A DNA stretch of 64,000 nucleotides, from contig DAOVJY010000001.1 of NCBI GenBank assembly GCA_030632085.1, positions 207,402-271,401 of the forward strand, written 5' to 3'. Below the pieces are notes generated by a model. That model had not been told where the DNA came from, searched no databases, and saw nothing but the letters and a program-made list of their open reading frames with translations. Below are positions 8,907-49,658 of this stretch, piece after piece (position 1 is the first letter of the stretch; each line of letters starts with the position of its first letter). Source of the stretch: Candidatus Omnitrophota bacterium. GTDB taxonomy: Bacteria; Omnitrophota; Gorgyraeia; JAGLLT01. The position numbers and the translations under genes are program-made.

Positions 8907-10025
8907 CTAATCTAAAGGTTCACAATCAGTAATTCTTACATTGCATACTTTGCCTAAATATTTACGGTATACACATTGAGTTTCAGAAGATACATCATTC
9001 TGCTTCATCCATACTTTCTGAACACCAACTGTGCCGCTTTGAGTAAGAATGTGAACTAAATCTACGTCTTTTTTCTTATAGCAGTTGAGAATTCCTTGCA
9101 CTAATAACGAATAAATTCCACGTCTCCTATATGCTTCATCGACGGCGTTCAACGTTATGTAGACTATATTCTTTGAAAATGACTTGGTAGCTTCTATATC
9201 TGCTTCCCCGCTTAAGTACCCAACCACTTTATTTTCATGAGTTGCAATAATAATTTTATTATTTGCGTTTTGCAAGGAGCTTTTATAACAACTATTTATC
9301 CATTTTTTGTAAAGAAGATCAGCTTTATCATTAGAAAGCATGGGGTCATTGTGAAATCTATCGAACCAACCGCTTTGAGGCCTAAATGACTTTTCTGTAA
9401 TTTTGCGTAAGTCTTTTAAATCGGATGGTTTGGAGAATCTCAATTTTATATTTGAATCGTAAGCTTCCGGTGTATAATTTGTTAAATTCTTAATATAAGC
9501 GCTTGTTTGAGCCATTAACAAGTATTGGTTTTCTTCAGCCGAGTGTATTAATGATATCTGATTTAAGGGCAGGCGAATGGTTATATGTTTTATTTGCTGA
9601 TGGATACAATAACTCTCTATTTCATTTAATAGAATAGACGAGTATTTCTTGTCATCTGAATAACCCGACTGGCTAACAATACCAATCTTGGCCATCTTGA
9701 ACCCAAAATGCCTGGTATCCCAATCGGAAAGCTCTACCCATCCAAATGCTTTAATTTTCCCATTGATATCTAAGGCTATAATTCTGCCGTTATTCTTTAT
9801 TTTAGAAAGTTTACTAAGAAAATATTTTACCTTCTTTTTGTTCGTTATCTCTTTACAGCTGTAAAAATTTTTGTATTTATACTCATCCAGCAGCAAAGAG
9901 AGTTTTTTTAAGGTTGAGTTATTTATTTCGATAATCTTCATACAAGCTAAATAATCTTTTTCTTGTAGTATTCGATTGTCTTTTTTAAGCCATCTTCCAA
10001 AGAAGTTGATGGCTCCCAATTGCAA
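8907..10025 (-). CDS. GNAT-family N-acetyltransferase (two-domain, WecD-like), probably a sugar N-acetyltransferase
   Basis: The C-terminal half carries the GNAT acetyl-CoA motif VDEAYRRRGIYSLLV. The annotated start overlaps the upstream gene by 79 nt. An alternative start at Met29 (complement 9939..9941) removes the overlap. Neither start has a convincing Shine-Dalgarno sequence. Confidence 0.5.
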   Translation of the reverse strand: MQLGAINFFGRWLKKDNRILQEKDYLACMKIIEINNSTLKKLSLLLDEYKYKNFYSCKEITNKKKVKYFLSKLSKIKNNGRIIALDINGKIKAFGWVELSDWDTRHFGFKMAKIGIVSQSGYSDDKKYSSILLNEIESYCIHQQIKHITIRLPLNQISLIHSAEENQYLLMAQTSAYIKNLTNYTPEAYDSNIKLRFSKPSDLKDLRKITEKSFRPQSGWFDRFHNDPMLSNDKADLLYKKWINSCYKSSLQNANNKIIIATHENKVVGYLSGEADIEATKSFSKNIVYITLNAVDEAYRRRGIYSLLVQGILNCYKKKDVDLVHILTQSGTVGVQKVWMKQNDVSSETQCVYRKYLGKVCNVRITDCEPLD

Positions 10026-10912
10026 TAACTCTTAATTCTATCTATTTTTGGCACTCTTCTAGGTATATCTTCATATTTATCGCCAAACACTTCTTTATGG
10101 GAAATAAATTTAAACTCTGATTTAAAATTACCAACTTTTTTCAGCGCCTTAGCAAGCTCCAAAACTGAAACTTCTTCTGTGCGCCCTATATTGAAAACAT
10201 TCTGTTCCGCTTTTTTACAAAAGGCAACTTTTAATACTGCATCTACGGCATCGTCAACATATACATACGTTCTAGTTTGTGAGCCATCTCCATGAATTGT
10301 GACAGGTTCATTCATCAAAAACTGTTTTAAAAATATAGGAATAACTCTCCCTGAGCCTAAATCATCCAGCTTTGGGCCGTAGACATTAAAAAAACGAACC
10401 ATAGCGAAAGGCAGGCCTTCGTGCTGATGATAGGCATAAAGATAATGTTCTGCTGTCGCCTTTGCAGATGAATAACACCACCTATTTATAGCAGTTGAAC
10501 CCAAAACCCTATCATCATCTTCCGCCCAAGGAGTTTTTGGATTCCTGCCATAAATTTCTGAAGTTGAGGCAAAAATAACTTTTGTTTTATCTTGAGCAGC
10601 CAACTTTAAAATATTGAGCGTTGCCTGTAAATCAATCTCAAGCACAGTTAGGGGCTCTTGCACATATCTTTTCGGATCGGCGATAGCCGCAAAATGAAAA
10701 ACCATATCAGCCTTTTTGACTTCTCTCTGCATTAGGTCTCTATCTAAAACAGAACCCTGAATAAACTGAAAATCTTTATTATCCATAAGATATTCTACTT
10801 TTGAACCATCTGACATATCAAGAGCAATGACATTATGCCCCTTTTTTAAGAGTTTTTCACATAAATATGAACCTAAAAAACCAGCTCCACCTGTAATTAA
10901 TATTCTTTCCAT
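9947..10912 (-). CDS. SDR-family UDP-glucuronate decarboxylase resembling the ArnA C-terminal domain
   Basis: Rossmann motif ITGGAGFLGSYL. ADMVFHFAAIADPKRYVQEPLTVLEIDLQATLNILKLAAQDKTKVIFASTSEIYG aligns with the ArnA decarboxylase segment [55 protein letters not shown]. The catalytic YSSAK motif is present. A GGAGGA Shine-Dalgarno sequence is present. Confidence 0.7.
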   Translation of the reverse strand: MERILITGGAGFLGSYLCEKLLKKGHNVIALDMSDGSKVEYLMDNKDFQFIQGSVLDRDLMQREVKKADMVFHFAAIADPKRYVQEPLTVLEIDLQATLNILKLAAQDKTKVIFASTSEIYGRNPKTPWAEDDDRVLGSTAINRWCYSSAKATAEHYLYAYHQHEGLPFAMVRFFNVYGPKLDDLGSGRVIPIFLKQFLMNEPVTIHGDGSQTRTYVYVDDAVDAVLKVAFCKKAEQNVFNIGRTEEVSVLELAKALKKVGNFKSEFKFISHKEVFGDKYEDIPRRVPKIDRIKSYCNWEPSTSLEDGLKKTIEYYKKKII

Positions 10913-10946: not shown

Positions 10947-12473
10947 TTATATCAAATCCACCTTAATTAAGCAATAAAAACCACTTTCTTTAACAATCTG
11001 ATTGTTGGGCAAGTTTAATTCAGAAATTTGGACGTATTGTGTGTTGATCAAGAGATAATTTATGTCATATCTTTTAAAAATGACGGTCAAGGGCACCTTC
11101 AAGACAGGCCAAAAATCACTGTAATCCACAACATGGGCTATAGAGTTGTCTGTGGTTAACAACCTGGCAGAAGTAAAATATGTAGCAGCATCAGCTAAAT
11201 ACAGGGGCATGGTCATTATATTTACTTTGCCTTCAAGAATATCAATATATTTAAATATTTCTTTTATTTCTTTATTAACCGAGCGTTTAGAATCTTTTAC
11301 TATAACTTGCTGCTGTATGAATAATGTGGGCAGCAACGCTCCGAAAATAGCGATGATTAAATAGAACACTAAAAATACATTATGCTGTCCCGATATTAAG
11401 CCATTTGTAAGAAATACTGCTACAATTATAGCTACAGGGAAAGCTGAGTATTCCAGATACCTTTCGCCCTCTCCAATACAGCCAAGTTTCTTCACCTGTC
11501 TGACAATGACTCCAATCACAAACAACAAGATACTCCAAACAACAAACTTTGAGAACATAGCCTCTGGGATACCCATTGTATTTATATTATATGATTTGAA
11601 TAAATCTAAATAAACATAAGCAAAAACAAAAACCATAAAAGGATTAGCGGCGCATACAGCTATAAAAGGTATATTTTGAACAAGTTGATATATCCTAAAA
11701 ACAGCATCCGGATTTTTCTCTTTTTTTGAAACTCCTCTTATCTGGTGAGCATATCTATTATCAATATGAATAAACCAGAACCTTATCATGGCCAGGTGTC
11801 CCTTGAGAACTTTAAGATAGAACCCTTTTGAAAAAAGTATTGCTAAGATAACAGAACCTAACAACACAGCAATATATGTAAAATCAAGTTCAATTATTGA
11901 GAAAAACACCAAGGTAAACACAATTGCCTGAATAGACATTCGGTGCGATAAAAGTAATATAGTTAAGAAAATAATAGAAGCTATCAAACAAAAGATATTG
12001 CCAAACACACTATAACAAATAAGGGAAAAGAAACAACCGCTAAATAGTAATGAAGCAAAAGAGCGAGTTGTCAAATTAGAATTTTCCATAATAACTATAG
12101 GGCTGAGCATATAAGTTACTTGAGCGAGTATCGAAATAAAGAAGTTATTTGTAAAATAATAAACTACGCTAAAAATAAATAAGTTGTGAATGAAATCAAA
12201 AATTGGTGAAGCAATCCACTGGTATTTTTCAAGTAATTTTTTTGGAAATAGGGCTAGTAAAAAACGAAAAAGCGGCGGATAATCAGAAGGCTTATCTATA
12301 AGATAGTGTTCAGGCATAAGCTTTGGATATTTCTTATTCTGCCTTATATAGTCGGCTACTGTCAGATGCCTCCATGTATCAATCCCAAAATAGCGATTAC
12401 TAAGCCGAGGCCTAACCTGGATAAACAACCCAACCAAAGCAACAACTACTCCAAATATATACCCAATTAACAT
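10947..12473 (-). CDS. Polytopic membrane protein, putative GT-C glycosyltransferase (ArnT/PMT-like), 508 aa
   Basis: About 12-13 hydrophobic helices. The first loop motif FGIDTWRHLTVADYIRQNKKYP resembles the ArnT DE-motif region (PDETRYAEISREM). It is a paralog of 21575..23104 and of the remnant at 12651..12878. An AAGGAT Shine-Dalgarno sequence is present. Confidence 0.5.
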   Translation of the reverse strand: MLIGYIFGVVVALVGLFIQVRPRLSNRYFGIDTWRHLTVADYIRQNKKYPKLMPEHYLIDKPSDYPPLFRFLLALFPKKLLEKYQWIASPIFDFIHNLFIFSVVYYFTNNFFISILAQVTYMLSPIVIMENSNLTTRSFASLLFSGCFFSLICYSVFGNIFCLIASIIFLTILLLSHRMSIQAIVFTLVFFSIIELDFTYIAVLLGSVILAILFSKGFYLKVLKGHLAMIRFWFIHIDNRYAHQIRGVSKKEKNPDAVFRIYQLVQNIPFIAVCAANPFMVFVFAYVYLDLFKSYNINTMGIPEAMFSKFVVWSILLFVIGVIVRQVKKLGCIGEGERYLEYSAFPVAIIVAVFLTNGLISGQHNVFLVFYLIIAIFGALLPTLFIQQQVIVKDSKRSVNKEIKEIFKYIDILEGKVNIMTMPLYLADAATYFTSARLLTTDNSIAHVVDYSDFWPVLKVPLTVIFKRYDINYLLINTQYVQISELNLPNNQIVKESGFYCLIKVDLI

Positions 12474-12880: not shown

Positions 12881-13606
12881 TTATTCCTCATTACCTTTAA
12901 TTTTCTTACAAACTAAAAATATATCTCTAAAACCATCTTTTTCATATTCACGGGTAATAATTTTTTCTATAAAAGGCTTCTTATACAAATTAATTTTAAA
13001 CAAGTATTTAGAAAGATAAAAGAAAGGGATGGAAAGATTTGTTAATACTCCTCCTTTTAACATGAGTTTTTCAAATTCAAAACCTTTATCAGCTAACATC
13101 TGTCTTAAATTTTCTACGTTGTAATGCCGATGGCCCACTAACCAGTGCGCTACATCAAAGATATTACCCATCAACTCACTACGAGGAGTCGTTATTATGA
13201 ATGAGCCCCCTATTTTTAGCACTCTATTTACTTCTTTAAAAAGCTGCGGCTCGGTATTTTTAGGAATATGCTCTAAAACCATAAACAGACTCACCACATC
13301 AAAGGAATTATCCTCAAAGGGCAGGCAAAATGCATCAGCTGCCCCAAAAGTACAATGGGGATTCGCTTCCTTGGCTATTTTTAAAGCTGCCAGGGATATA
13401 TCTACGCCAGTAATCTGACAATCGTCATCTTTAAACTGGGTTTCAAAACTAGCTGTCCAACAGCCGATATTCAAAACCTTTTTACCTTCAAAATATGGTT
13501 TAATTAATTTGTAAATAATCTTATGAAAAACGTCCGGAGTCGGTTCATCAAAACTCTTTAGAAAATTCAACTCATGAATTATGCGCTTCTTATTATCTTT
13601 TGGCAT
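12881..13606 (-). CDS. Class I SAM-dependent methyltransferase
   Basis: Motif VLNIGCWTASF, a motif II Asp and a VLEHI motif. Its start lies 2 nt after the upstream stop. Confidence 0.7.
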   Translation of the reverse strand: MPKDNKKRIIHELNFLKSFDEPTPDVFHKIIYKLIKPYFEGKKVLNIGCWTASFETQFKDDDCQITGVDISLAALKIAKEANPHCTFGAADAFCLPFEDNSFDVVSLFMVLEHIPKNTEPQLFKEVNRVLKIGGSFIITTPRSELMGNIFDVAHWLVGHRHYNVENLRQMLADKGFEFEKLMLKGGVLTNLSIPFFYLSKYLFKINLYKKPFIEKIITREYEKDGFRDIFLVCKKIKGNEE

Positions 13607-13608: not shown

Positions 13609-15066
13609 TTATCTTCTGACCTTTACAAAATCTCTGATATGCCCTATGACCGGTTTTATACCTCTGCCTAAATATCTAATATATTCTAAATCTCTAATTT
13701 TTAAGATATGGCGCAATATAAATCTAGGATGCAGAAATATTTTATATATATCATGACAAATCTTCATTATTTCTTCTTCAGTTGCATCAGGTGTTTTTAA
13801 TATCGGATGGCACATATCGAATTGCTCATAATCATCTTTATCAATCTTAAGCCAGTTGTTTTCCACAGCCTCCTCATAAAGAGGTGTCCCGGGATAACTC
13901 ATAATCACAGTTGATTGCAACATATCGGCATAACCGTTAAGCATCAGATATCTGGCTAGTTTAAGGGTATCGAGCATGTCTTGCTTAGTTTCCCAGGGAT
14001 AGCCGACCATCATTGTTAAATGGACTGTCAGTCCGGCCTGCTTAGCTATTTTGCTACCCTCTATTATCTGGGCAACGGTTGTACCTTTATCAAGCCGCTT
14101 TAGAGTTTCATCGCTGGCTGATTCCAGACCACATTTCATGAGCCGGAAGCCCGCTTTTTTCATTAACTTGGCTCGTTCAAGAGTTAAATAATCATACCTG
14201 AAATTACAGGATATGTATATCTTCTTATTGTAACCTCTTTCAATCATTCCGTTACAAAATTCTGTTAACCACTTGCCAGAAGGAAAAGTTCCGGTATCAT
14301 CAAATATTTCACCGATATCATATTTTCCAATCAACAATCCAATTTCATTTAGTAAGCTCTCAGGGCTTCTGGTTCTAAACTTGGGAAAAAGTGTGGTCCA
14401 GGAACAAAATTTACATTTGGCCCAAGGACAGTCTCTTCCAACCATAGTATAAGTGAATGGCTCTCTTTTATAAAGCCGTTCACCATATAAACGCCACTTA
14501 GTCAGCTCTCTATCAACTAAAGGCAGAGTATTTAAATCATGATTAAGCTCAAACTTACCGGTACTTTTTATTTGTCCATTATTTCGATACCAGATACCAG
14601 GCTCCAGCGTTTCTTTTTTTTCTAAATATTTAACTATATTTGAGAGAAGAAAATCATAATCCCCTCCGGTAAGACAAAAATCAACTTTTGAATTTTGCAT
14701 ACTTTCATCCGGCTTAGCCGTAATGTGATCTCCCATTAAGACTGTAATGCATTCAGGATTGATGCTTTTAAGTTCATCAACTATTTTCCAGTGCTGCCTA
14801 ACGACCGGGGTTTTTGTCTCCAGGGCAATTAAATCGGGTTTTTCTTTCTTGACAAAATCGATAAATTCCTCATATTGCCATTTTTCAGCAATGCAATCAT
14901 TCCATACAACCTCATGGCCCTCTTCTTTTAAAAGAGTTGCCGCTGAAGCCGGCACCATGGGATATATATAAGATGGATTATGAAAATATTGAAACTGTCT
15001 ATTCTGCCCAAGCATAGGTATTCCTTTAGCATCCGGTATTGGTGGATATGAAATCATTATTTTCAT
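13609..15066 (-). CDS. B12-binding-domain radical SAM protein
   Basis: The N-terminus has a Rossmann-like B12-binding domain. The core carries GRDCPWAKCKFC (a Cys triad with Cx4Cx2C spacing), DDTGTF (glycine-rich SAM motif), CGLESASDETL (GxESxS ribose motif) and TMMVGYPWET (the xVGxPGET motif typical of B12-rSAM and Elp3-like enzymes). Confidence 0.7.
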   Translation of the reverse strand: MKIMISYPPIPDAKGIPMLGQNRQFQYFHNPSYIYPMVPASAATLLKEEGHEVVWNDCIAEKWQYEEFIDFVKKEKPDLIALETKTPVVRQHWKIVDELKSINPECITVLMGDHITAKPDESMQNSKVDFCLTGGDYDFLLSNIVKYLEKKETLEPGIWYRNNGQIKSTGKFELNHDLNTLPLVDRELTKWRLYGERLYKREPFTYTMVGRDCPWAKCKFCSWTTLFPKFRTRSPESLLNEIGLLIGKYDIGEIFDDTGTFPSGKWLTEFCNGMIERGYNKKIYISCNFRYDYLTLERAKLMKKAGFRLMKCGLESASDETLKRLDKGTTVAQIIEGSKIAKQAGLTVHLTMMVGYPWETKQDMLDTLKLARYLMLNGYADMLQSTVIMSYPGTPLYEEAVENNWLKIDKDDYEQFDMCHPILKTPDATEEEIMKICHDIYKIFLHPRFILRHILKIRDLEYIRYLGRGIKPVIGHIRDFVKVRR

Positions 15067-18000
15067 TTTTTATATCTTCCCTTCCTTTGACGATCATAAC
15101 ATAGGTAAGATATTGATATAATAAGAGTAATAAATGAAACACTTAGACCTAAATAAAATAAGTTTTGTACCTTATAGTTAATTACTATTGTTGAACCTTT
15201 TTTATATTCGGACTTATCAATTTTCCATCCATTTGCATAGCCATCTATTATGAAATGTTCATCAAGTTTAGACTTCTTACCTGAATTACGATTAATAATA
15301 TATGCTTCCCATTCTGAGTTATAAGCTTCCCGAAAATATAAAAAAGATACCTTATTGCTATCGCGTAAAACATTATATTTAGTTTGATTAATCTTTTTAT
15401 ATTTGAGAGGATATGAAAATTCTTGAGTATCGTCTTTAGATGATACTTCAAGGCAACATTTACCCATATTTGCCTGAGCAAATCCAACACTATGCAGTCC
15501 CTCAGGAAAAAATATACTTTCATATATATAACAGTTAACACCATCTAAATTCTTTAGTTCAAATGATATTTCCTTTTCATCTAAACAAACCTTTTTATTC
15601 TTTGTTTGAATGTTTTCACTTACTAAACTATCATAAGGGTAAATTCTGATGTTGTAATCACCCGATTTTGGTATATATATATCACTTTTATAATATTCAT
15701 TACCTATAACCACATCTTTAATAGCACAAGTTACACTTCTCCCATATTTATAACTTTCTTTATCGGGCGAATAAAATGAAATATAATTATCACCCGGTTT
15801 TAATTTAATGCCTTTTAAAATTGTTGTTCGAACCATATCTTTTGGTAAAAAACACATTGAAAGATACGTATCGTTTATATAATAATACATATATCTATCC
15901 ATTTCATATGAATATACATCAAATTTGACATTGGTAATAACTTCTTCACTACTCCTATTATCTATGATAATTGTTTTTCCGTTAGCTGATATTAACCAGT
16001 TCCATTTCGCTTCTTCCGGATTTTTTTTAAATTTAAAAACATTAATTAACTTTGGACTGTTATATTCGCTATTCCATTGAGTATCTTCGGATCTGACTTC
16101 TGACTGCATTTTTTCTGATGATAAAAAATATGTTAAACCCTTACCTTTTTCTCTCAAGCATCTCAGCAATAAATTTCGATATAAATCATTATATGTATCA
16201 AAAACAGCTTTGGGTAATATAATTAAATTAATTTCTTTACTTCCAAGTATGCTCTTTTCCTGATTGGTTAATCTTATTTCAATAACACGCTTTCCTTTTT
16301 TTATATAAAAATTTGCAATGTTAATCCATTTCAAAGAAAAATCGTCCTGAATTAGATCCTTTCTAGCTTGCCCAATTTGTCCATCAATTTTTACATTAAG
16401 TTTGCGGCTATATATGTTGTATATATCCTGTTCAATCCATACCTGATACAAATTTTCAATGCTTGCCTCAAAATTAAATATATGTCCGTTATTAGCTTGT
16501 AAATCGTCACTTAATAGAGTAATTTTATGTTCGGGTTCTATAAAATCAAATACAAAATCAGAAAAATTAGCATTGTAAAAGAAAATTTTCTCAATTCCTC
16601 CATTGAGTTCTTCTTTAATGAAAGTATGATTTATTTTTTGACTAGATAAAATAACAGGTAAGTCATTCATAATATTAATATAACTTAAAGGAGAAAAAGC
16701 TGAAACTTTACCGACTAACATAGCTAACTTAGATGTTTCCCCAATATAAACCGGGTCATCCTGATTTTGATATAATTGCCACTTGCCATAAGTGCCTAAA
16801 AGATTAATTTTTCTTTGATAGGATAAAGCGCTCTTTAGAAAATCCGGTGAAAGCTTTGAACCAAAAAAATCATACCAGGCATCATTGTGAACTAAGATAT
16901 ATTTTACGTTTAAGACATTCAGAATATTAGCGGCTAGCGGAGTCGTTCTCTCATAAAGGGCGTTGTAATAAGTATTTTTCAGCTTATCAGTATCGGTTGC
17001 ATTACTGTTTCCATATAGTATAGATTTTAATGAGAGCAATGTAAGTAAATGTGGGGGGCCTACATAACCCCATCTATATCCATTAAGCGGTAATGATGGT
17101 AACGCAATAATACGATAATCATTTTCTTGCTTATCCATAAATTTAACAAAATCAATTATATAATTTGGAACCTTTATACCAACAGAAAATGACGTTCCAG
17201 GTTCTCTTATCCTAATAACTTGTCCGTTTAACATTGGATAGCTGTAGATAAAATTACAACATAAAATTATTATTATAAATACTGTAGGTATCATGCTATT
17301 AAGGTTATACTTTTGGTGCAATATTGTTCTTTTGCAACAATTTTTAATCTTTGTGTACAAATATATCAAAGTAACACTTATTAAATACGAATATGCCAAG
17401 GAAATAATTAACGCGAATTTATAATATGGGCTTCTAAATACCTGAAAAAAAGGCACATTTTCAGTCATCCACAAGTAAAATTTGCCCGTGGGCATATGAG
17501 CACCGCAAGCTAAAACCGTGGCAATTATACTCATTACAACAAAAAAAACTTCGTGAAATTTCTTTTTAATAATAATTGCAGAGTAAGCCAATGCAGGAAT
17601 TAATACACTCCAAATTATCAAAAATGGATTAGTGAAATATGTTTTAGCATAGGGAACATAAGGCACATTAACCCTGGCGTCATAGTACCAATCCCATGCT
17701 CCCTGAAAGCGGGAAACATTTAAAATAGAGGTGTGGGTACTTATTCCCTTAAGCCAGTTAGCCAAATTAAACGCCCCTAAGCCGTAATTCACACTGGCCA
17801 TCAATCTTGCAACAACTTCACGCAAATAAGGTAACCACCAAAAAGCGTTTATACCGATAAAGATAAGGATAATTAAAGCAAAAAAACTTATAACGTTACA
17901 TATATTTTTAAAGGCATCCTTTGAAAATATCCTATTTATAATATAAAAAATTGCGTATGAGACAATCAACAATAGTGGCATAGCAAAAATAGGAGGACTA

Positions 18001-18575
18001 GCTCCCCATTCAGACACTAATAGTGAAAACAGTCCTATGTAAATAGCAGCCTTAAAATAACTTATATCTTTCCTTAGGCCCTTAATCATAAAAGCTAATA
18101 TTATCGGCATACCAACATAAGCTGAAATATTGGCAGCCTTCCCTACTTCCCAAATATTAAAAACCAGTGGATTAAAAGCATAGAAACAGACAGCTATTAA
18201 TCTTTGCAAGCGATTCGGTTTCGCCTGAATGACAGCAACCATGTAATAAATGGCCACTTCTATCATTAAAAACCAAAATATAAAAAGAATCTTCTGCGAT
18301 ATAATTGCTGACATACCGAAAAAATTGCAAATGGCTTGAGGTAAATAATAGAATAGACTTGTAGCATAAATAGCAGATGGCATACCGGCGCCAAAACGAG
18401 AATCCCACATAAAAAAACGTGCTGTATAAAACTTAATAGGATTGTACAAAGGATAAACCGCATCTGAACCAGCCACAGCTATTCCGCCTTTGAACCAAAG
18501 CAGGGGCACGAGTCCTAATAAAAAAATTACTAATAAATCCTGTAATAATGCATTTTTACTTTTATTATTATTCAT
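15063..18575 (-). CDS. Large polytopic membrane protein, putative GT-C glycosyltransferase (AftD/DUF3367-like), 1170 aa
   Basis: The N-terminal roughly 480 aa are multi-transmembrane. The first loop GSDAVYPLYNPIKFYTARFFMWDSRFGAG aligns with the AftD N-terminal motif (PDTKLDLTANPLRFLARATNLWNSDLPFGQ). The large soluble C-terminal domain ends ...ANGW... plus a transmembrane anchor. Confidence 0.5.
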   Translation of the reverse strand: MNNNKSKNALLQDLLVIFLLGLVPLLWFKGGIAVAGSDAVYPLYNPIKFYTARFFMWDSRFGAGMPSAIYATSLFYYLPQAICNFFGMSAIISQKILFIFWFLMIEVAIYYMVAVIQAKPNRLQRLIAVCFYAFNPLVFNIWEVGKAANISAYVGMPIILAFMIKGLRKDISYFKAAIYIGLFSLLVSEWGASPPIFAMPLLLIVSYAIFYIINRIFSKDAFKNICNVISFFALIILIFIGINAFWWLPYLREVVARLMASVNYGLGAFNLANWLKGISTHTSILNVSRFQGAWDWYYDARVNVPYVPYAKTYFTNPFLIIWSVLIPALAYSAIIIKKKFHEVFFVVMSIIATVLACGAHMPTGKFYLWMTENVPFFQVFRSPYYKFALIISLAYSYLISVTLIYLYTKIKNCCKRTILHQKYNLNSMIPTVFIIIILCCNFIYSYPMLNGQVIRIREPGTSFSVGIKVPNYIIDFVKFMDKQENDYRIIALPSLPLNGYRWGYVGPPHLLTLLSLKSILYGNSNATDTDKLKNTYYNALYERTTPLAANILNVLNVKYILVHNDAWYDFFGSKLSPDFLKSALSYQRKINLLGTYGKWQLYQNQDDPVYIGETSKLAMLVGKVSAFSPLSYINIMNDLPVILSSQKINHTFIKEELNGGIEKIFFYNANFSDFVFDFIEPEHKITLLSDDLQANNGHIFNFEASIENLYQVWIEQDIYNIYSRKLNVKIDGQIGQARKDLIQDDFSLKWINIANFYIKKGKRVIEIRLTNQEKSILGSKEINLIILPKAVFDTYNDLYRNLLLRCLREKGKGLTYFLSSEKMQSEVRSEDTQWNSEYNSPKLINVFKFKKNPEEAKWNWLISANGKTIIIDNRSSEEVITNVKFDVYSYEMDRYMYYYINDTYLSMCFLPKDMVRTTILKGIKLKPGDNYISFYSPDKESYKYGRSVTCAIKDVVIGNEYYKSDIYIPKSGDYNIRIYPYDSLVSENIQTKNKKVCLDEKEISFELKNLDGVNCYIYESIFFPEGLHSVGFAQANMGKCCLEVSSKDDTQEFSYPLKYKKINQTKYNVLRDSNKVSFLYFREAYNSEWEAYIINRNSGKKSKLDEHFIIDGYANGWKIDKSEYKKGSTIVINYKVQNLFYLGLSVSFITLIISISYLCYDRQRKGRYKK

Positions 18576-23112: not shown

Positions 23113-24840
23113 TTACTCCTCCTCTGCCATTCTTTTTGCGAATAAACCTTTTATAAAATATATTCCATAGACGATATGAGTGGACATTATACCAAAAAAA
23201 ATCAAGCACATCAATTTAATTTTCATCGCGGGAATGCTATTCAATAGTAAGAGGCTTAAATAAAAGGCTACTGCGCCAAAATACAAGCCTCTTATACAAG
23301 GAAAAAAGAAGGAGAGTATGCCGCCTAAAATAAACCCTATATCAAATAAAGAAGGTATAAAATAACAAATCTTGAAAGAAGTTTCGGGATACTTTTTCAC
23401 GAAATAACCTCTATGGAGAGCATAGTTTTTTATTTGCTTTAGATGAACCTTAAACAGCTCCCTTCTATGATGATAAACTATAACACCGGGATCATAAATA
23501 ATTTTTTTATTAAGCAATTTTATTTTTAGACACAGGATCGTATCTTCTCCAGGCCAAAATTTAGTATTAAATCCTTTGATCTGCTCAAGCACTTCTTTTC
23601 TGACAAACAAATTACAAGATGGATAATCATCAACTTCTCTAACTTTGTAGGGAATATATCTATAGTTGTTAATCCCCGCGACTAGCCATGAGGAATAAAC
23701 GGCCCCACTGGCAATTTGATTGAGATTATCTGAGGCTGGTGTGACAGCCGGCCCACCCACAGCTGCTACTCTTTCATCTTCAAAATGACTAATCGTGTTC
23801 ATAATCCAGTCTTTTGTCGGCAAGGCATCATCATCTAAAAAAGCGACAATTTCACCCTTTGCTTCTCTTATGCCAACATCTCTTTTTTCAGGAGGCGTGA
23901 CACAACCCGTCGGCACTATATTAATCTTTTCATCCTGCAGCTCCTTATCAAATGAAAACTTCTCATCAGGCAAAACAATTATTTCATATTTTGGATAATT
24001 TAATTCTAAGCATTTCCCCATAGACTCTTTTAAGTACTCATTCATCTTAACTACCGGAATGACAATAGAAACCATCGGAAATATTGAAGGTTTTTTCTTT
24101 AGATAATCATAATATTTTAGAATATAGAGACGATAATAAATTGCAAGTACATCAATTACCACATAATACAAATGAAATAAGCTCAGGGGCTGCCATTTTT
24201 GGCGCGAACCCAATTTGATTGGAACATTTTTCACTTTATAATTAAGGTGCCGCGCAACTACAAAAATTTCAAGGTTCAAGGCATATTTTTTTGTTATTAT
24301 GCGTTCTACGATATTCTTTAGCACATTTCTCTTAAATAACATGCAATCAGTATTAACATCTTTTACATTAAGGCTGAAGAGCTTTTTTAAAAACCAATAA
24401 TAAAATTTAGATAGGACGTGCCTAACTGCCGGGTAATCGACATTGGATTCCGGATGAAATTTTGAAGCTACAATTATATCAGTAATTTCACCATCAAAGT
24501 CTTCAATAAATTTTCCAATATCCTCTTTCTTTAAATCTAAAGCTGGGTCAATAAAGAAAATTAAATCTCCTGAGGCAAATTGAAATCCCCTTAGCAAAGT
24601 AAAAACTTTGCCTACCTTTGGATCATAATTAACTATTTTGACCTTCTCTAAATCTAGTGCACACTCAGGAACTATTCCTTCTAAATTTAAACTCTCTTCC
24701 TCCTTGATAACAATAATAAACTCATAGAGATATGCTAGTTTATTTAGTACCTCGAGAATATCACTCATTTTAGACAAAAGCAGTTTTGTTTCAACGGAGA
24801 AAGGCATAATAATTGAAATTTTTAGATTATTTTTTTTCAT
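23113..24840 (-). CDS. GT2 glycosyltransferase with a degenerate N-terminal GT2-like domain and C-terminal transmembrane helices
   Basis: The second domain carries VSIVIPVVKMNEY...IVAFLDDDALP (DxD motif). The first domain (ISIIMPFSVETK...) lacks a clear DxD. The C-terminal roughly 90 aa are hydrophobic. Confidence 0.65.
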   Translation of the reverse strand: MKKNNLKISIIMPFSVETKLLLSKMSDILEVLNKLAYLYEFIIVIKEEESLNLEGIVPECALDLEKVKIVNYDPKVGKVFTLLRGFQFASGDLIFFIDPALDLKKEDIGKFIEDFDGEITDIIVASKFHPESNVDYPAVRHVLSKFYYWFLKKLFSLNVKDVNTDCMLFKRNVLKNIVERIITKKYALNLEIFVVARHLNYKVKNVPIKLGSRQKWQPLSLFHLYYVVIDVLAIYYRLYILKYYDYLKKKPSIFPMVSIVIPVVKMNEYLKESMGKCLELNYPKYEIIVLPDEKFSFDKELQDEKINIVPTGCVTPPEKRDVGIREAKGEIVAFLDDDALPTKDWIMNTISHFEDERVAAVGGPAVTPASDNLNQIASGAVYSSWLVAGINNYRYIPYKVREVDDYPSCNLFVRKEVLEQIKGFNTKFWPGEDTILCLKIKLLNKKIIYDPGVIVYHHRRELFKVHLKQIKNYALHRGYFVKKYPETSFKICYFIPSLFDIGFILGGILSFFFPCIRGLYFGAVAFYLSLLLLNSIPAMKIKLMCLIFFGIMSTHIVYGIYFIKGLFAKRMAEEE

Positions 24841-25848: not shown

Positions 25849-26964
25849 TTATACGTTTTTACTTTTCTGCGCTGAAATTCTATTTATAATCATTAAACTT
25901 TTTTCAACTGTTGTATTCCAATTGTATTTTCTTGAATCCTCAAGAGCCTTTTGGCAATATTCCAATTTATATTCAGGCTTTTTCAAAAAATACGAACCGA
26001 TACTTTCAGCAAGAGAATCTATGGTATTTTCTTTTGCGAAAAAACCGTTTACTCCTTCACTTACCGAATCTTTTAGACCAGCTACTCTATAGGTTAGAGC
26101 CGGTGTACCCATGGCATTAGCTTCGGTTACAATCAAACCCCATCCTTCTCTTACTGAAGTAACTACAATCAGATGAGCTAAAGACATAAGCCTTAATTTA
26201 TCTTTATTATTTAGATTATGAAAGAACTTTATACCAGGTTCATCTTTAGCGAGTTTGTATAAATATTCCTTATGGGATTTATCTCCATTACCAACTATCC
26301 ATAACTTCAAATCAGGTTGTTTTACTCTAGCTAATTTATAAGCCTCGATTATATGATGTACTCTCTTTGATTTTTTTAATCTGCCAACATAAATTAGCGT
26401 AGGAGTTTCTTCTTTTTCAGGCAAACTATCAAGAGGCTTAAACTCTATGCCCATAGGTATAATGCTTATTTTATCAGCCTTAAAACCTAAATTGATTAAA
26501 TCATCTTTGGTGCTGTTGGAAATCGTTATCACATCATTATTATTATAACTTTTTATAAAAAAAGGTTCTATTGAATACCCAAGTAATGAAAGGGGAAATA
26601 CCGACTCATAAAACCAAACTTCTTTAGCCAACTGATTAATATGACAAACCACTTTTTCCTTAGCATAGCAATTTGAAAAAAAAGGTATAGTATTAATTTC
26701 ATCAATAATTAAATCAAACTTACCCTTGAATTCCTTTTTATAGTATATATATGCCTGCCAATATACGCTAATAGCATTACCGGCTCTTATAATATTAACA
26801 CCGTCAACGCTTTCTCTTTTTTTGGCTCCTTTAAAAAAACTTGAGAAAAATGTAACTTCATGGCCGGTGGTCACCCATCCTTTGGCCAGTTCATGGGTTA
26901 AAACTTCCGCTCCACCCGCTCTGGGACTTTTTATGTCTCTCCAGTTTAGTATAAGAATTTTCAT
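25849..26964 (-). CDS. GT4 (GT-B fold) glycosyltransferase
   Basis: C-terminal EGWGLIVTEANAMGTP (the E-x7-E-like motif region). Confidence 0.75.
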   Translation of the reverse strand: MKILILNWRDIKSPRAGGAEVLTHELAKGWVTTGHEVTFFSSFFKGAKKRESVDGVNIIRAGNAISVYWQAYIYYKKEFKGKFDLIIDEINTIPFFSNCYAKEKVVCHINQLAKEVWFYESVFPLSLLGYSIEPFFIKSYNNNDVITISNSTKDDLINLGFKADKISIIPMGIEFKPLDSLPEKEETPTLIYVGRLKKSKRVHHIIEAYKLARVKQPDLKLWIVGNGDKSHKEYLYKLAKDEPGIKFFHNLNNKDKLRLMSLAHLIVVTSVREGWGLIVTEANAMGTPALTYRVAGLKDSVSEGVNGFFAKENTIDSLAESIGSYFLKKPEYKLEYCQKALEDSRKYNWNTTVEKSLMIINRISAQKSKNV

Positions 26965-27704
26965 TTAATTTTATCGTAATATTTTAAGATATACATACGG
27001 TAAAAAACCGCCATGGTGTCCAGCCATGTATGCCATATATCTTTTAATTTTATTCTTCCAAACTCTCTTTGAAAATGAAGCTTAATAGGAGCTTCAACTA
27101 TCTTGTAGCCCAAATGGTGCGCGTTTACCAACAGCTCTAAATCAAAAGCGTACCTTTTAATTAATACTCTGGGAAAAGTATCCTTAAGAACTTCCCTCTT
27201 GAATAACTTTATGCCCGTCTGAGTATCCCTTACCGGTAAACCAAATAATAATCGGATAATATAATAATAACCATTACTGATTATTTTTCTACGCAAAGGG
27301 TAATTAACTTCAGACTCAGGATGTCTTTTGGAGCCAATGGCTACATCGGCTTCACATTTCTTCAAAACATCGAAAAGTTTTTCAACTTGCTGCGGATGTA
27401 AATCCAAATCCGCGTCTAAAAAAACAATATAATCACCCAGAGTATATCTAAAGGCTTTTTTTAAAGCCCTGCCCTTGCCAAAGTTGGTCCGGTTTCTTTT
27501 AGCGCATATATTTGCATGATCAGCCGCAAATTCCCTAATTTTATCATAAGTATCATCTTTGGAACCGTCATCTATTATTACTATTTCATAATCACTGCCA
27601 AACTCGTTAAAAGTACGCATAGTCTCTTTGATGCTGGAGATTATATGCGTTCCTTCATTATACGCGGGCATTATGATAGATATCTTATTCTTAATGTCTC
27701 TCAT
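26961..27704 (-). CDS. GT2 polyprenyl-phosphate hexose synthase-like glycosyltransferase (DPM1-like, soluble)
   Basis: ISIIMPAYNEGTHI...VIIDDGSKDDT...FLDADLD. No transmembrane segment is apparent. Confidence 0.75.
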   Translation of the reverse strand: MRDIKNKISIIMPAYNEGTHIISSIKETMRTFNEFGSDYEIVIIDDGSKDDTYDKIREFAADHANICAKRNRTNFGKGRALKKAFRYTLGDYIVFLDADLDLHPQQVEKLFDVLKKCEADVAIGSKRHPESEVNYPLRRKIISNGYYYIIRLLFGLPVRDTQTGIKLFKREVLKDTFPRVLIKRYAFDLELLVNAHHLGYKIVEAPIKLHFQREFGRIKLKDIWHTWLDTMAVFYRMYILKYYDKIK

Positions 27705-28965
27705 CTGTTTCTGACACCTTCTTTTGCCTAAAAGTAAAAATTAACAACGCCGCGCATATAATTACACCACTTACAGCCAGCGTCTGTATTACCATAAAAA
27801 GTGACTGTTTGAAAAAATTCAATAAAACCACATGCATAATAGAGCCGCCGAGCAGCACCCATAAAACTTTAATTCTATGGGCGGCAATGTTATAATAAAT
27901 CAAGATAGTAATCAAAGAGTAAGGGATAAAGGCAAAAACGAAAATCTTTAATAATGCCGGAACCTCAGCACTGTATGCGCTCTTTAAAACCAAACCTACT
28001 AAAAAATCAGCCAAAATAAATAAGATAATGGCAGCCAGGCTGCAAAGAGTAAAACTGTATTTCAGGGTTGTCTTTAGAAGCGGCAACGAAGATCTTTTAT
28101 CGGCGTAGGCGGCAGACACTTTAGGAAACATACCCGCGGCCAGGGCCAGGGGCAGATAGAATATTGTCCTGCCCAAAAGTGAAGCTGAAGAGTACACCGG
28201 TGACCCCTCGAGAAAACAATGCTGAACCATCAAAATATCAATAAAACAAATTATGTAACTAAAGAAAAAAGCTATCACTATCCACCAGCTGGTTTTATAA
28301 TAACCAATCAGGTTATCCTTAACGGGGTTTTCATAACCAAAGAAGATATCTTTAAGCCAATAAAAAATCAAAGCAAAAATTAATATATAAGCTATTATGG
28401 AAGCACTTATAATTCCCGTTACATTAAAACCAAGATATATCAAAGAACAACCTATCGTAAATCTCAATACGGCAAAAATAATCATACTCAATGACCACAA
28501 CTTAAATCGTTCCATACCCTGCAGGGCGCCGTAAACCACCGGGATAACAACCGATAAACACATCAGAAAACCGGTAACCATAACAGCCGTAACCGCCTCA
28601 GGCCTATTTAGAATAGAAGCAATTTTACCCGCAAACGGCAAAAAAGCAGCAAAGGCCACAAGTGCTATAAGCGAAATTTTGCCGAGGGTATGAACTAACA
28701 AGTATGAAACCTTACTGGTTTGAGCACTGGCGCGGTATTGTGATATCTGTTTTGAGACCATAGACAACACCGACATACCCAAAACGCCAAATATCATACT
28801 TAAAGTAAACAATGAGTACATAAAGGAAAAATCGCTTTCCGTCAGTTTACGGTTGGCTACAATCTGCAGGAAAAAATTAAACGAGCCGCTTACTATTGTA
28901 GCTAAAAATATTAAGCTGCTGTGTTTTAATAAATCATTTTTTGTCTTATCGTTAGAAAAATTCAT
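27691..28965 (-). CDS. Polysaccharide biosynthesis protein, a Wzx-like flippase of the MOP superfamily
   Basis: A 424-aa protein with about 12 hydrophobic helices and no soluble domain. Confidence 0.6.
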   Translation of the reverse strand: MNFSNDKTKNDLLKHSSLIFLATIVSGSFNFFLQIVANRKLTESDFSFMYSLFTLSMIFGVLGMSVLSMVSKQISQYRASAQTSKVSYLLVHTLGKISLIALVAFAAFLPFAGKIASILNRPEAVTAVMVTGFLMCLSVVIPVVYGALQGMERFKLWSLSMIIFAVLRFTIGCSLIYLGFNVTGIISASIIAYILIFALIFYWLKDIFFGYENPVKDNLIGYYKTSWWIVIAFFFSYIICFIDILMVQHCFLEGSPVYSSASLLGRTIFYLPLALAAGMFPKVSAAYADKRSSLPLLKTTLKYSFTLCSLAAIILFILADFLVGLVLKSAYSAEVPALLKIFVFAFIPYSLITILIYYNIAAHRIKVLWVLLGGSIMHVVLLNFFKQSLFMVIQTLAVSGVIICAALLIFTFRQKKVSETDERH

Positions 28966-47138: not shown

Positions 47139-47210
47139 AGCCGATGAGAGGAATCGAACCTCCAACCTAGCGCTTACGAAGCGCTTGCTCTTCCATTGAG
47201 CTACATCGGC
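47139..47210 (-). tRNA. tRNA-Thr (anticodon CGU); no CCA encoded
   Basis: It folds as a cloverleaf: acceptor GCCGATG/CATCGGC, D-stem GCTC/GAGC, anticodon stem AGCGC/GCGCT with loop TTCGTAA, and T-stem GGAGG/CCTCT with loop TTCGATT. Confidence 0.8.
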
Positions 47211-47253
47211 AAAAAAAGCTCATTTTATTTAAGCTTTTAGGCCATATAATAGA

Positions 47254-47329
47254 TGGTGCCGCGAGACGGAATTGAACCGCCGACGCCGGGATTTTCAGTC
47301 CCGCGCTCTACCAACTGAGCTATCGCGGC
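47254..47329 (-). tRNA. tRNA-Phe (anticodon GAA); CCA encoded
   Basis: GCCGCGATAGCTCAGTTGGTAGAGC...CTGAAAA...GGTTCAATTCC...TCGCGGCACCA. Confidence 0.8.
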
Positions 47330-47352
47330 ATTAACTACTTTTTGAAGATAAC

Positions 47353-47430
47353 TGGCGGGGACGACGGGATTCGAACCCGCGATCACCGGATCGACAGTCC
47401 GGGGTCTTATCCTAGCTAGACGACATCCCC
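47353..47430 (-). tRNA. tRNA-Asp (anticodon GUC); CCA encoded
   Basis: GGGGATGTCGTCTAGC...anticodon loop CTGTCGA...GGTTCGAATCCC...CCCCGCCA. Confidence 0.75.
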
Positions 47431-47432
47431 TT

Positions 47433-47453
47433 AAATTTCACGTCGTGAAATTT
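47433..47453. repeat. Perfect 10-bp inverted repeat (hairpin) immediately 5' of tRNA-Asp on the transcribed strand
   Basis: aaatttcacg-t-cgtgaaattt. Confidence 0.5.
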
Positions 47454-49639: not shown

Positions 49640-49658
49640 GGCCGGTTATTTTTTAAGA

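What the first reader, a model, noticed from the sequence alone, without database searches (positions are those of the whole stretch)
13609..15066. B12-binding radical SAM enzyme with unusual Cx4Cx2C cluster spacing embedded in the glycan cluster
The protein has the hallmarks of the B12-binding radical SAM class: an N-terminal Rossmann B12 domain, a GxESxS-like CGLESASDETL and a VGYPWET motif. Its only Cys triad reads CPWAKCKFC, that is Cx4Cx2C rather than the canonical Cx3Cx2C.

B12-rSAM enzymes in sugar pathways typically methylate unactivated carbons, for example GenK and Fom3. Here it is translationally coupled, with a 2-nt gap, to a class-I methyltransferase and sits beside an AftD-like GT-C gene. 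That arrangement suggests C-methylation or another radical modification of the transferred sugar.
Basis: partly seen in the sequence, partly recalled or inferred. Interest (0 to 1): 0.6.

Follow-up and report, generated by a model that had tools for sequence, protein, structure and literature searches.

The report
B12-type radical SAM glycan-tailoring enzyme
The gene is an intact B12-domain radical SAM enzyme from a large, uncharacterised family that almost always sits behind a membrane glycosyltransferase; its one-residue-longer iron-sulfur motif (Cx4Cx2C) is real and conserved, but it is already known from other enzymes of this class.

Summary
Observation confirmed. Window 13609-15066 (-) encodes a 485-aa protein with a B12-binding domain and a radical SAM core. 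Its only Cys triad is C213-PWAK-C218-KF-C221.

The spacing is not an error. All 120 closest homologues (57-92% identity) have Cx4Cx2C.

It is not novel either. The motif aligns without gaps to the Cx4Cx2C sites of OxsB and archaeal Elp3, both solved structures. GenK, GenD1 and Sis14 are reported to have it too. Within the signature-defined family the Cys1-Cys2 loop is x3, x4, x7, x9, x17 or x18, so its length is a tolerated polymorphism.

No curated family claims the protein. HpnJ (169 bits, cut-off 578) and BchE (137 bits, cut-off 481) are the nearest models, and both are non-methylases.

The family occurs in hundreds of bacterial and archaeal genomes. Its conserved partner is a ~320-aa membrane GT2 directly upstream (50 of 70 loci, usually abutting or overlapping). 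The methyltransferase follows it only in close relatives. An AftD-like GT-C lies within 10 kb in 15 of 84 loci.

Most likely role: radical tailoring of a lipid-linked sugar made by the GT2. C-methylation is my first guess and ring contraction the main rival. Neither is shown.

This is an ordinary new member of a known class.

The parts
13609..15066 (-). Gene for the 485-aa B12-binding-domain radical SAM protein (the finding)
   Evidence: ORF. Pfam B12-binding plus Radical_SAM. AF2 model with mean pLDDT 91.2. Homologues of 57-92% identity.
14557..15066 (-). N-terminal Rossmann-type (B12-binding) domain, residues ~1-170. It carries the family signatures QNRQFQYF (21-28), GDHITA (112-117) and TGGDYDF (133-139).
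   Evidence: PF02310 hit at 41-131. Alternating beta/alpha elements at 2-150 in the model. Signature comparison with generic class B relatives. The HpnJ and BchE models align from residues 32 and 40 onward.
14404..14430 (-). [4Fe-4S] cluster-binding motif C213-PWAK-C218-KF-C221 (Cx4Cx2C)
   Evidence: DNA and translation. Invariant in alignment A1. 120 of 120 homologues. Aligns without gaps to OxsB CDYSRCTFC and Elp3 CPHGKCIFC. Lies in the loop after the first core strand (204-207) in the model.
13867..14469 (-). Radical SAM core, residues ~200-400, with IFDDTGTF (GGE-motif position), GLESAS and GYPWET
   Evidence: PF04055 hit at 209-371. Motifs. Foldseek hits to AprD4, MgmA, OxsB, TsrM, CysS and TokK.
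12881..13606 (-). Class I SAM methyltransferase (241 aa), 2 nt downstream. It is the conserved downstream partner only in the sub-clade of 74% identity or more.
   Evidence: Pfam Methyltransf_11/25/23. Junction. The same pair occurs in L001, L002, L005 and L063.
15063..18575 (-). 1170-aa polytopic membrane protein, weakly AftD-like GT-C. Its stop overlaps the rSAM start (ATGA).
   Evidence: PF11847 at 19.8 bits, below the cut-off of 26. Eight N-terminal predicted TM segments plus a C-terminal one. Junction. Homologues within 10 kb in 15 of 84 loci. No PDB sequence match.
23113..24840 (-). 575-aa double GT2: an N-terminal PgfS/ArnC-like half fused to a C-terminal MftF/AglG-like membrane half. 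It is the window's copy of the family-wide GT2 partner, here separated from the rSAM by about 8 kb.
   Evidence: NCBIfam hits at 6-179 (PgfS) and 250-487 (MftF). Three C-terminal predicted TM segments. The fused GT2 directly precedes the rSAM in L001 (17-nt overlap), L063 and others.
26961..28965 (-). Wzx-type flippase (27691-28965) and a 247-aa GT2 (26961-27704). Elsewhere these form a Wzx - GT2(~250) - GT2(~320) - rSAM module.
   Evidence: Pfam. NCBIfam. Gene-order census.

Best explanation
Shown or strongly supported:
- The gene encodes a catalytically intact radical SAM enzyme with an N-terminal B12-type Rossmann domain.
- Cys213, Cys218 and Cys221 form the [4Fe-4S] site. The extra loop residue is a tolerated variation of the loop between Cys1 and Cys2, as in OxsB and archaeal Elp3.
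- The protein belongs to a large, uncharacterised family found in Bacteria and Archaea. The family is recognisable by QNRQFQ[WY]F, GDH[VI]TA, TGGDYDF and GYPWET.
- Its conserved, usually abutting or overlapping (probably translationally coupled) partner is a ~320-aa membrane GT2. That GT2 is often preceded by a ~250-aa polyprenyl-phosphate-sugar-synthase-like GT2 and a Wzx flippase.

Inferred mechanism:
1. At the cytoplasmic face of the membrane the GT2 or GT2s build a sugar on a lipid carrier, most likely polyprenyl phosphate.
2. The reduced cluster cleaves SAM to a 5'-deoxyadenosyl radical.
3. That radical abstracts a hydrogen atom from an unactivated sugar carbon.
4. My committed guess is that methylcobalamin then delivers a methyl group, giving a C-methyl sugar, as in GenK, GenD1 and MoeK5.
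5. In this lineage the neighbouring class I methyltransferase adds a further O- or N-methyl group.
6. The modified unit is flipped and used for the surface glycan.

Confidence is about 0.9 for 'functional class-B-type radical SAM enzyme', about 0.65 for 'acts on the GT2 product', and about 0.4 for C-methylation specifically. The confidence field (0.4) refers to the full committed mechanism.
For: Domains and motif.

Motif conservation: 120 of 120 closest homologues; three invariant Cys and no further conserved Cys cluster.

Structure: confident model with a Rossmann domain plus partial TIM barrel and the Cys loop after the first core strand. Fold matches are to class B enzymes: MgmA, OxsB, TsrM, CysS and TokK. 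The motif aligns without gaps to the solved Cx4Cx2C enzymes OxsB and Elp3.

Indirect support for functional importance: in homologues, inteins sit exactly at Cys1, at Cys3 and at the TGGDYDF motif, as expected for functionally critical sites.

GT2 partner: directly upstream in 50 of 70 loci. In 42 of those 50 the GT2 stop lies 1443-1505 nt from the rSAM stop, so the two genes abut or overlap. Explicit 4-nt overlaps are seen in L003, L006, L011 and L067. A bare GT2-rSAM pair sits in an otherwise unrelated neighbourhood in L003. Wzx and the GT2 of ~250 aa recur upstream.

Precedent for class B enzymes with Cx4Cx2C acting on sugars: GenK and GenD1 C-methylate aminoglycoside sugars (PMC4340712), and OxsB contracts a deoxyribose ring (PMC9204698). 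Most characterised class B enzymes are methylases (PMC12931638).

The window is a glycan/LPS region of a diderm bacterium.
Against: - No biochemical data exist for any member; I found no paper on the family.
- The nearest curated models are the non-methylases HpnJ (168.8 bits) and BchE (136.6 bits). The best methylase model, PhpK, scores 84 bits.
- The top fold match is AprD4, which has a Rossmann-like domain but does not bind cobalamin (PMC12931638). Cobalamin binding here is therefore inferred, not shown.
- The lipid acceptor and the sugar are unknown.
- The GT2 assignments rest on sub-threshold hits (MftF 84-101 bits against a cut-off of 280).
- In this window the GT2 partner is 8 kb away rather than adjacent.
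Confidence: 0.4

Rival explanations
1. Non-methylating radical rearrangement. As proposed for HpnJ (hopanoid glucosamine to cyclitol ether), calditol synthase Cds and OxsB, the 5'-deoxyadenosyl radical abstracts a sugar hydrogen atom. The ring of the GT2-installed, lipid-linked hexose then opens and recloses into a contracted or carbocyclic ring. Cobalamin would act as an electron sink or mediator rather than a methyl donor.
For: HpnJ is the best-scoring curated model and aligns over nearly the full length (residues 32-456). BchE, also a non-methylase, is second. The GT2-then-rSAM gene pair mirrors HpnI (GT) followed by HpnJ acting on a lipid-linked sugar (PMC9204698, PMC13459092). OxsB shares the Cx4Cx2C motif without gaps.
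Against: The score is far below the HpnJ cut-off (169 against 578), and none of 89 relatives reaches it. There is no hopanoid or HpnK-like deacetylase context. The partner GT2 does not hit HpnI. In similarity networks HpnJ itself groups with the methylases Fom3 and MoeK5 (PMC9204698), so similarity to HpnJ does not exclude methylation.
Confidence: 0.22
2. Cobalamin-independent radical SAM enzyme with a vestigial Rossmann domain. It would perform AprD4-like dehydration, or an epimerisation or oxidation, of a sugar.
For: AprD4 is the best Foldseek match (E 1e-21, TM 0.71-0.77) and the best profile-to-PDB hit. It acts on an aminoglycoside sugar. AprD4 and ArsL carry Rossmann-like domains without binding cobalamin (PMC12931638).
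Against: The Pfam B12-binding hit is above its cut-off. AprD4 sequence similarity covers only the radical SAM core (residues 181-428), and the AprD4 NCBIfam model gives only 44 bits against a cut-off of 500. The HpnJ and BchE models, by contrast, align through the N-terminal domain. BchE depends on cobalamin according to PMC9204698. G112 and H114 of the B12 domain are conserved in 90% or more of 89 class B relatives. An intein targets the TGGDYDF motif in that domain.
Confidence: 0.15
3. The substrate is not a glycan intermediate. It would be a membrane lipid or another small molecule, and the GT2 neighbourhood would reflect a shared membrane location only.
For: Related curated models include lipid-modifying enzymes: the ladderane rSAM at 90.6 bits and HpnR at 71 bits. 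The bare two-gene module in L003 lies outside any glycan cluster.
Against: The GT2 pairing, with abutting or overlapping genes, holds in 50 of 70 loci across both domains of life. Fused and unfused GT2 forms keep the same position. Most loci are rich in glycosyltransferases, sugar epimerases and flippases.
Confidence: 0.08
4. The motif reflects a sequencing or assembly error, a pseudogene, or a non-catalytic protein.
For: A few distant family members have lost all three Cys: P0127, P0137, P0141, P0150 and P0158.
Against: The ORF is intact and its ends match those of homologues. All 120 closest homologues share the same spacing. The codons are clean. All core motifs are present.
Confidence: 0.01

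Closest known systems
HpnJ (hopanoid biosynthesis-associated B12-type radical SAM protein, TIGR03471)
   Same: It is the best-scoring curated model and aligns over residues 32-456. It has the same two-domain architecture and size (~470-485 aa). Its gene follows a glycosyltransferase step (HpnI), and its proposed substrate is a lipid-linked sugar.
   Different: The score is 168.8 bits against a cut-off of 577.6. There are no hopanoid genes nearby. The partner GT2 is MftF/AglG-like, not HpnI. The query family has its own signatures (QNRQFQ, GDH, TGGDYDF, GYPWET) and mostly Cx4 rather than Cx3.
BchE (anaerobic Mg-protoporphyrin IX monomethyl ester cyclase, TIGR02026)
   Same: It is the second-best model (136.6 bits) and aligns over residues 40-455. 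It is a cobalamin-dependent non-methylase of the same architecture.
   Different: The score is far below the cut-off (481). There is no tetrapyrrole context. Some sources label homologues 'BchE', which is an over-annotation.
OxsB (oxetanocin ring-contraction enzyme; PDB 5UL2-5UL4)
   Same: It is a class B enzyme with a crystallographically defined Cx4Cx2C site. The family profile aligns RDCPWAKCTFC to SRGCDYSRCTFC without gaps. Its substrate is a sugar ring.
   Different: OxsB is 744 aa with extra domains. Similarity is weak (profile E 6.7e-9, about 16% identity in the fold alignment). Its substrate is a nucleotide in an antibiotic pathway.
GenK / GenD1 / Sis14 (aminoglycoside sugar C-methyltransferases)
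   Same: They are cobalamin-dependent radical SAM enzymes reported to carry Cx4Cx2C (PMC4340712). They methylate unactivated sugar carbons.
   Different: Their substrates are soluble pseudo-oligosaccharides in actinomycete antibiotic clusters. I could not compare sequences directly because none was available in the tools.
MoeK5 (moenomycin sugar C-methyltransferase)
   Same: From my own knowledge and PMC9204698: it is a class B enzyme proposed to methylate a sugar of a lipid-linked saccharide soon after a GT step, and it groups with HpnJ and Fom3 in similarity networks.
   Different: Not tested here. It belongs to an antibiotic pathway, and its substrate has a phosphoglycerate-lipid anchor.
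AprD4 (radical SAM 1,2-diol dehydratase; PDB 6FD2)
   Same: It is the best structural match (TM 0.71-0.77), has the same length and two-domain layout, and acts on a sugar.
   Different: It does not bind cobalamin. It aligns with a canonical-length Cys loop. Sequence similarity is confined to the radical SAM core (NCBIfam 44 bits against a cut-off of 500).
Archaeal Elp3 (PDB 6IA8, 6IAD, 6IAZ)
   Same: It has the same Cx4Cx2C spacing and a strikingly similar loop (CPHGKCIFC against CPWAKCKFC).
   Different: It is a tRNA-modifying radical SAM/GNAT enzyme with no B12 domain. Only a core segment is similar.

Membership tests
Radical SAM superfamily (PF04055) | Three-Cys CxnCx2C motif in the loop after the first core strand, binding the SAM-cleaving [4Fe-4S] cluster | tested here: met
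   C213, C218 and C221 are invariant in the family. They lie in the loop after strand 204-207 in the model. The Pfam hit is 73.6 bits against a cut-off of 29.5. The spacing is x4, not x3.
Radical SAM superfamily (PF04055) | Partial TIM-barrel core with SAM-binding motifs (GGE-type, ribose, GxIxGxxE-type) | tested here: met
   The model shows a beta/alpha core from 204 to 390 and Foldseek matches many radical SAM structures. IFDDTGTF, GLESAS and GYPWET sit at the conserved positions. Assigning each motif to a SAM contact is an inference.
Radical SAM superfamily (PF04055) | Reductive cleavage of SAM to a 5'-deoxyadenosyl radical | not testable with these tools
   Needs anaerobic biochemistry.
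Class B (cobalamin-dependent) radical SAM enzymes | N-terminal Rossmann-type cobalamin-binding domain fused to the radical SAM core | tested here: met
   PF02310 at 41.3 bits against a cut-off of 32.1. Rossmann-type secondary structure at 2-150. Fold matches to MgmA, OxsB, TsrM, CysS and TokK.
Class B (cobalamin-dependent) radical SAM enzymes | Actual binding and use of cobalamin | not testable with these tools
   AprD4 and ArsL show that the domain alone is not proof (PMC12931638). Model coordinates and cofactor docking were not available.
HpnJ (TIGR03471) | Score at or above the curated equivalog cut-off (577.6 bits) | tested here: not met
   168.8 bits.
HpnJ (TIGR03471) | Hopanoid gene context (shc, hpnH, hpnI, hpnK) | tested here: not met
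   None of the 41 window proteins scanned against Pfam has a hopanoid-pathway domain. Neighbours in related loci were matched only to window proteins, and the partner GT2 does not hit HpnI.
BchE (TIGR02026) | Score at or above the curated cut-off (481.35 bits) | tested here: not met
   136.6 bits.
TIGR04295 (B12-binding-domain radical SAM family; NCBIfam short name B12_rSAM_oligo) | Score at or above the cut-off (400 bits) | tested here: not met
   45.2 bits.
AprD4 family diol dehydratase (NF033070) | Score at or above the cut-off (500 bits) | tested here: not met
   44 bits, core only.
GenK/GenD1-type sugar C-methyltransferases | Cx4Cx2C cluster motif | tested here: met
   The query has the motif. 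GenK, GenD1 and Sis14 have it according to PMC4340712.
GenK/GenD1-type sugar C-methyltransferases | Orthology or close sequence relationship, and methyl transfer by way of methylcobalamin | not tested
   No GenK or GenD1 sequence or model was available in the tools. The activity needs an assay.

The most novel reading that the evidence does not exclude
The family is not a methylase. It would perform an HpnJ/Cds/OxsB-type radical ring contraction or rearrangement on a polyprenyl-phosphate-linked sugar made by its partner GT2. That would produce a carbocyclic or branched sugar unit built into the surface glycans of many uncultured Bacteria and Archaea (Omnitrophota, Latescibacterota, Bathyarchaeia, DPANN lineages, Methanocaldococcus).
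Probability: 0.2. Interest if true: 0.7.

Novelty: new member of a known kind. Interest (0 to 1): 0.33.

Why it matters
The specific point raised, the Cx4Cx2C spacing, matters little. It is conserved, has structural precedent, and varies freely within the family.

The by-product is more useful. A very large family shows 52-57% identity between bacterial and archaeal members, occurs in hundreds of species-level genomes, and has clear sequence signatures. It is tightly paired with a membrane glycosyltransferase, and nothing is known about it biochemically.

Solving one member would annotate thousands of genes. It would also reveal a radical modification of lipid-linked sugars in cell-surface glycans of mostly uncultured anaerobes. 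Methanocaldococcus indicus, which is cultured, carries a 55% identical copy in the same GT2 context and is a practical entry point.

Tried and rejected
- Sequencing error or frameshift at the motif: rejected.
- A second, canonical CxxxCxxC or an auxiliary cluster: none. Only one further Cys (C271) is conserved at 90% or more.
- Membership of HpnJ, BchE, the ladderane rSAM, PhpK, HpnR, BzaD, MgmA, AprD4 or TIGR04295: every score is far below its cut-off. None of 89 wider relatives reaches the HpnJ cut-off.
- GT2-rSAM fusion proteins as Rosetta-stone evidence: none found. The long homologues turned out to carry inteins, a phosphodiesterase fusion, or a class I methyltransferase fusion.
- Methyltransferase or GT-C as the family-wide partner: rejected by the locus census.
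- PDB sequence search with the 1170-aa GT-C-like neighbour: no meaningful hit.
- Cobalamin riboswitch or other RNA element in the window: only six tRNAs.
- Promoter and terminator scan of the 408-nt gap downstream of the methyltransferase: nothing above background.
- Literature searches for a characterised member, or for B12-type radical SAM enzymes in O-antigen, capsule or archaeal N-glycan clusters: nothing relevant.
- No direct comparison with GenK, GenD1, MoeK5, Fom3 or Cds was possible, because no sequences were available.
Full report
**1. What is there**

Window 13609-15066 (- strand) is an intact 485-aa ORF. Pfam finds a B12-binding domain at residues 41-131 (41.3 bits, cut-off 32.1) and a Radical_SAM domain at residues 209-371 (73.6 bits, cut-off 29.5).

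The protein has 11 cysteines. Only one triad has the CxnCx2C form: C213-P-W-A-K-C218-K-F-C221. It is encoded by clean codons (tgt cct tgg gcc aaa tgt aaa ttt tgt, nt 14430-14404).

The gene's stop is 2 nt from the ATG of a 241-aa class I methyltransferase. Its own ATG overlaps the stop of a 1170-aa membrane protein (ATGA). No other radical SAM gene or Cx3-4Cx2C motif exists in the window.

**2. Is the spacing real, and is it unusual?**

The spacing is real.
- All 120 closest database homologues (57-92% identity) carry Cx4Cx2C at the same position. The consensus is C-[PW]-[WY]-[AGH]-[KR]-C-x-F-C.
- The three Cys are invariant in a 26-sequence alignment.
- An AlphaFold model built on that alignment is confident (mean pLDDT 91.2). 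It places the triad in the loop after the first strand of the radical SAM core.

The spacing is not new.
- A profile of the family aligns RDCPWAKCTFC without gaps to OxsB SRGCDYSRCTFC. A short, sub-threshold local match also aligns it without gaps to archaeal Elp3 AKCPHGKCIFC. Both are solved structures with Cx4Cx2C.
- The OxsB motif is discussed as such in PMC9204698.
- PMC4340712 reports the same motif in GenD1, GenK and Sis14.
- RadicalSAM.org lists many CxnCx2C variants (PMC9477430).

The loop length also varies inside the family. The family is defined by QNRQFQ[WY]F, GDH[VI]TA, TGGDYDF and GYPWET. Generic class B relatives have GGPHxT, GEGE and GxPGET at the last three of these positions. 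Within this family the Cys1-Cys2 loop is:
- x3 in P0121, P0130 and P0139;
- x4 in the majority;
- x7, x9 and x17 in others;
- x18 in the extein of P0124.

The more distant HpnJ/BchE-like relatives (27-33% identity) almost all have x3. The loop is therefore an indel hotspot. Its length is a tolerated polymorphism, not a marker of special chemistry.

**3. What family is it?**

No curated NCBIfam model claims the protein:

| Model | Score (bits) | Cut-off (bits) |
|---|---|---|
| HpnJ | 168.8 | 577.6 |
| BchE | 136.6 | 481 |
| Ladderane-associated rSAM | 90.6 | 360 |
| PhpK | 84.1 | 600 |
| AprD4 | 44 | 500 |
| TIGR04295 | 45.2 | 400 |

None of 89 wider relatives reaches the HpnJ cut-off.

Foldseek against the PDB gives AprD4 (6FD2) first, then MgmA (9CCB), OxsB, TsrM, CysS and TokK. 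MgmA was identified from PMC11796369. AprD4 is a warning: it has a Rossmann-like N-terminal domain but does not bind cobalamin (PMC12931638).

Several points argue for a genuine B12 domain here.
- The Pfam hit is above its threshold.
- The HpnJ and BchE models align through the N-terminal domain, whereas AprD4 matches only the core.
- G112 and H114 are conserved in 90% or more of 89 class B relatives.

Cobalamin binding is still an inference.

The family is very large.
- 5680 clusters at 90% identity have E of 1e-5 or better among the 8000 candidates scored, and the 120th hit is still 60% identical.
- 996 clusters at 50% identity have E of 1e-30 or better.

Members occur in Omnitrophota, Latescibacterota, Goldiibacteriota (Goldbacteria), Spirochaetia, Actinomycetota, Planctomycetia, Nitrospinota, Bathyarchaeia, Woesearchaeota, Nanoarchaeota and Micrarchaeia. 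The cultured Methanocaldococcus indicus also has one (L047). Bacterial and archaeal members are 52-57% identical.

The window itself is from a diderm bacterium: it encodes LpxB, an LpxC-FabZ fusion, BamA, an LptD-like protein and RmlA-D-like dTDP-sugar enzymes. It is syntenic with an Omnitrophota MAG (L005, 74% identity).

**4. Genomic context across 84 loci**

I called ORFs in all fetched loci and matched them to the window's proteins.
- In 50 of the 70 loci that have an upstream gene, the gene immediately upstream on the same strand is a GT2 homologous to the C-terminal half of window ORF 23113-24840.
- In 42 of those 50, the GT2 stop lies 1443-1505 nt from the rSAM stop, so the two genes abut or overlap. 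Explicit 4-nt overlaps are seen in L003, L006, L011 and L067, and a 17-nt overlap in L001.
- This GT2 is about 320 aa with C-terminal TM helices. It scores best against MftF and the dolichyl-phosphate-glucose glucuronosyltransferase AglG.
- In 30 loci it is preceded by a ~250-aa GT2 resembling polyprenyl-phosphate sugar synthases (PgfS, ArnC, PpgS, AglJ).
- In 21 loci a Wzx flippase lies within four genes upstream.

The window's 575-aa GT2 is a fusion of the two GT2 types. In the 92% orthologue (L001) and in L063 this fused GT2 directly precedes the rSAM. In the window and in L005 a block lies between them: a 509-aa membrane protein, an epimerase, a DegT aminotransferase, a methyltransferase and the GT-C-like protein.

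The downstream 241-aa methyltransferase stays attached only in the sub-clade of 74% identity or more (window, L001, L002, L005, L063). AftD-like GT-C homologues lie within 10 kb in 15 of 84 loci. In L003 the GT2-rSAM pair stands alone among unrelated genes.

So the family-wide functional partner is the membrane GT2.

**5. How it most likely works**

Shown: the domain architecture, the conserved cluster site and core motifs, and the GT2 pairing.

Inferred:
1. The GT2 or GT2s install a sugar on a membrane lipid carrier at the cytoplasmic face.
2. The radical SAM enzyme abstracts a hydrogen atom from an unactivated carbon of that sugar.
3. The modified unit is flipped (Wzx) and incorporated into the surface glycan, here possibly by the GT-C-like proteins.

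For the chemical outcome I commit to cobalamin-dependent C-methylation, at about 0.4. Most characterised class B enzymes are methylases (PMC12931638). GenK and GenD1 are Cx4Cx2C sugar C-methylases. By my own recollection and PMC9204698, MoeK5 methylates a lipid-linked sugar and groups with HpnJ.

The main rival, at about 0.22, is an HpnJ/Cds/OxsB-type ring contraction. HpnJ and BchE are the nearest models. The HpnI-then-HpnJ logic (a GT followed by a radical SAM enzyme acting on a lipid-linked sugar) matches the conserved gene pair (PMC13459092).

A cobalamin-independent AprD4-like reaction (about 0.15) and a non-glycan substrate (about 0.08) remain possible.

**6. Verdict**

The 'unusual spacing' is a known and variable feature of this class. 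The proposed functional link to the methyltransferase and GT-C is local to this lineage. C-methylation is plausible but unproven.

This is a new, uncharacterised member of a known enzyme class. It is interesting mainly because the family is so widespread and so consistently paired with a GT2.

Noticed in passing
Homologues P0122, P0123, P0125, P0128, P0237, P0124, P0194 and P0164 (not in the window): Several family members carry inteins, mostly with LAGLIDADG endonucleases. Some begin exactly at the third Cys of the cluster motif (..CTFC|FPPET..). In P0124 the intein begins at the first Cys, leaving an extein loop of Cx18Cx2C. In P0194 an intein in the B12 domain ends just before TGGDYDF.
   Followed up: partly
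Homologues P0127, P0137, P0141, P0150 and P0158: These full-length family members have lost all three cluster cysteines, yet they keep GDH-, TGGDYD- or GYPWE-like motifs at least in part. They may be non-catalytic paralogues.
   Followed up: partly
window 23113-24840 (-): The 575-aa GT2 is a fusion of two glycosyltransferases that are separate adjacent genes in most other loci. One half is like a polyprenyl-phosphate sugar synthase. The other is like MftF/AglG and has three C-terminal TM segments.
   Followed up: yes
window 10947-12473 (-) and 21575-23104 (-): Two paralogous ~508-aa proteins with about 10 predicted TM segments. They have no Pfam or NCBIfam match and were found only in the closest related loci (L001, L005). 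They may be polymerase-, ligase- or GT-C-like.
   Followed up: partly
window 1431-4550 (-) and 15063-18575 (-): Two paralogous large membrane proteins (1039 and 1170 aa) have only sub-threshold AftD GT-C hits. Both have class I methyltransferase genes next to them: on both sides of the 1039-aa gene, and immediately upstream of the 1170-aa gene.
   Followed up: partly
L005 18623-20047; also L023, L029, L031, L032, L035, L049, L050, L064-L066, L069, L070, L075, L080, L082: About 21 of 77 related glycan loci contain one or two more class B radical SAM genes. These are only 23-29% identical to the query and have canonical Cx3Cx2C. Several radical tailoring steps may be common in these clusters.
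   Followed up: partly
Homologues P0223, P0222, P0204 and P0217: P0223, a distant relative, is a B12-rSAM fused to a class I methyltransferase whose domain is 24% identical to the window's 241-aa methyltransferase. P0222 has an N-terminal phosphodiesterase/sulfatase-type domain. P0204 and P0217 (about 2100-2300 aa) contain four tandem radical SAM modules.
   Followed up: partly
window 8907-10025 (-) against 9947-10912 (-): The listed TTG start of the GNAT-domain ORF overlaps the upstream epimerase gene by 79 nt. Orthologues are shorter (336-345 aa), so the true start is probably further downstream.
   Followed up: no
window 58177-59511 (-): LpxC and FabZ (a FabA-like dehydratase domain) are fused in one 444-aa ORF. 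LpxB, BamA, an LptD-like protein and an ABC exporter lie nearby, so the organism is a diderm that makes lipid A.
   Followed up: no
window 47139-47673 and 49565-49734 (-): Six tRNA genes lie in two small clusters downstream of the glycan region.
   Followed up: no
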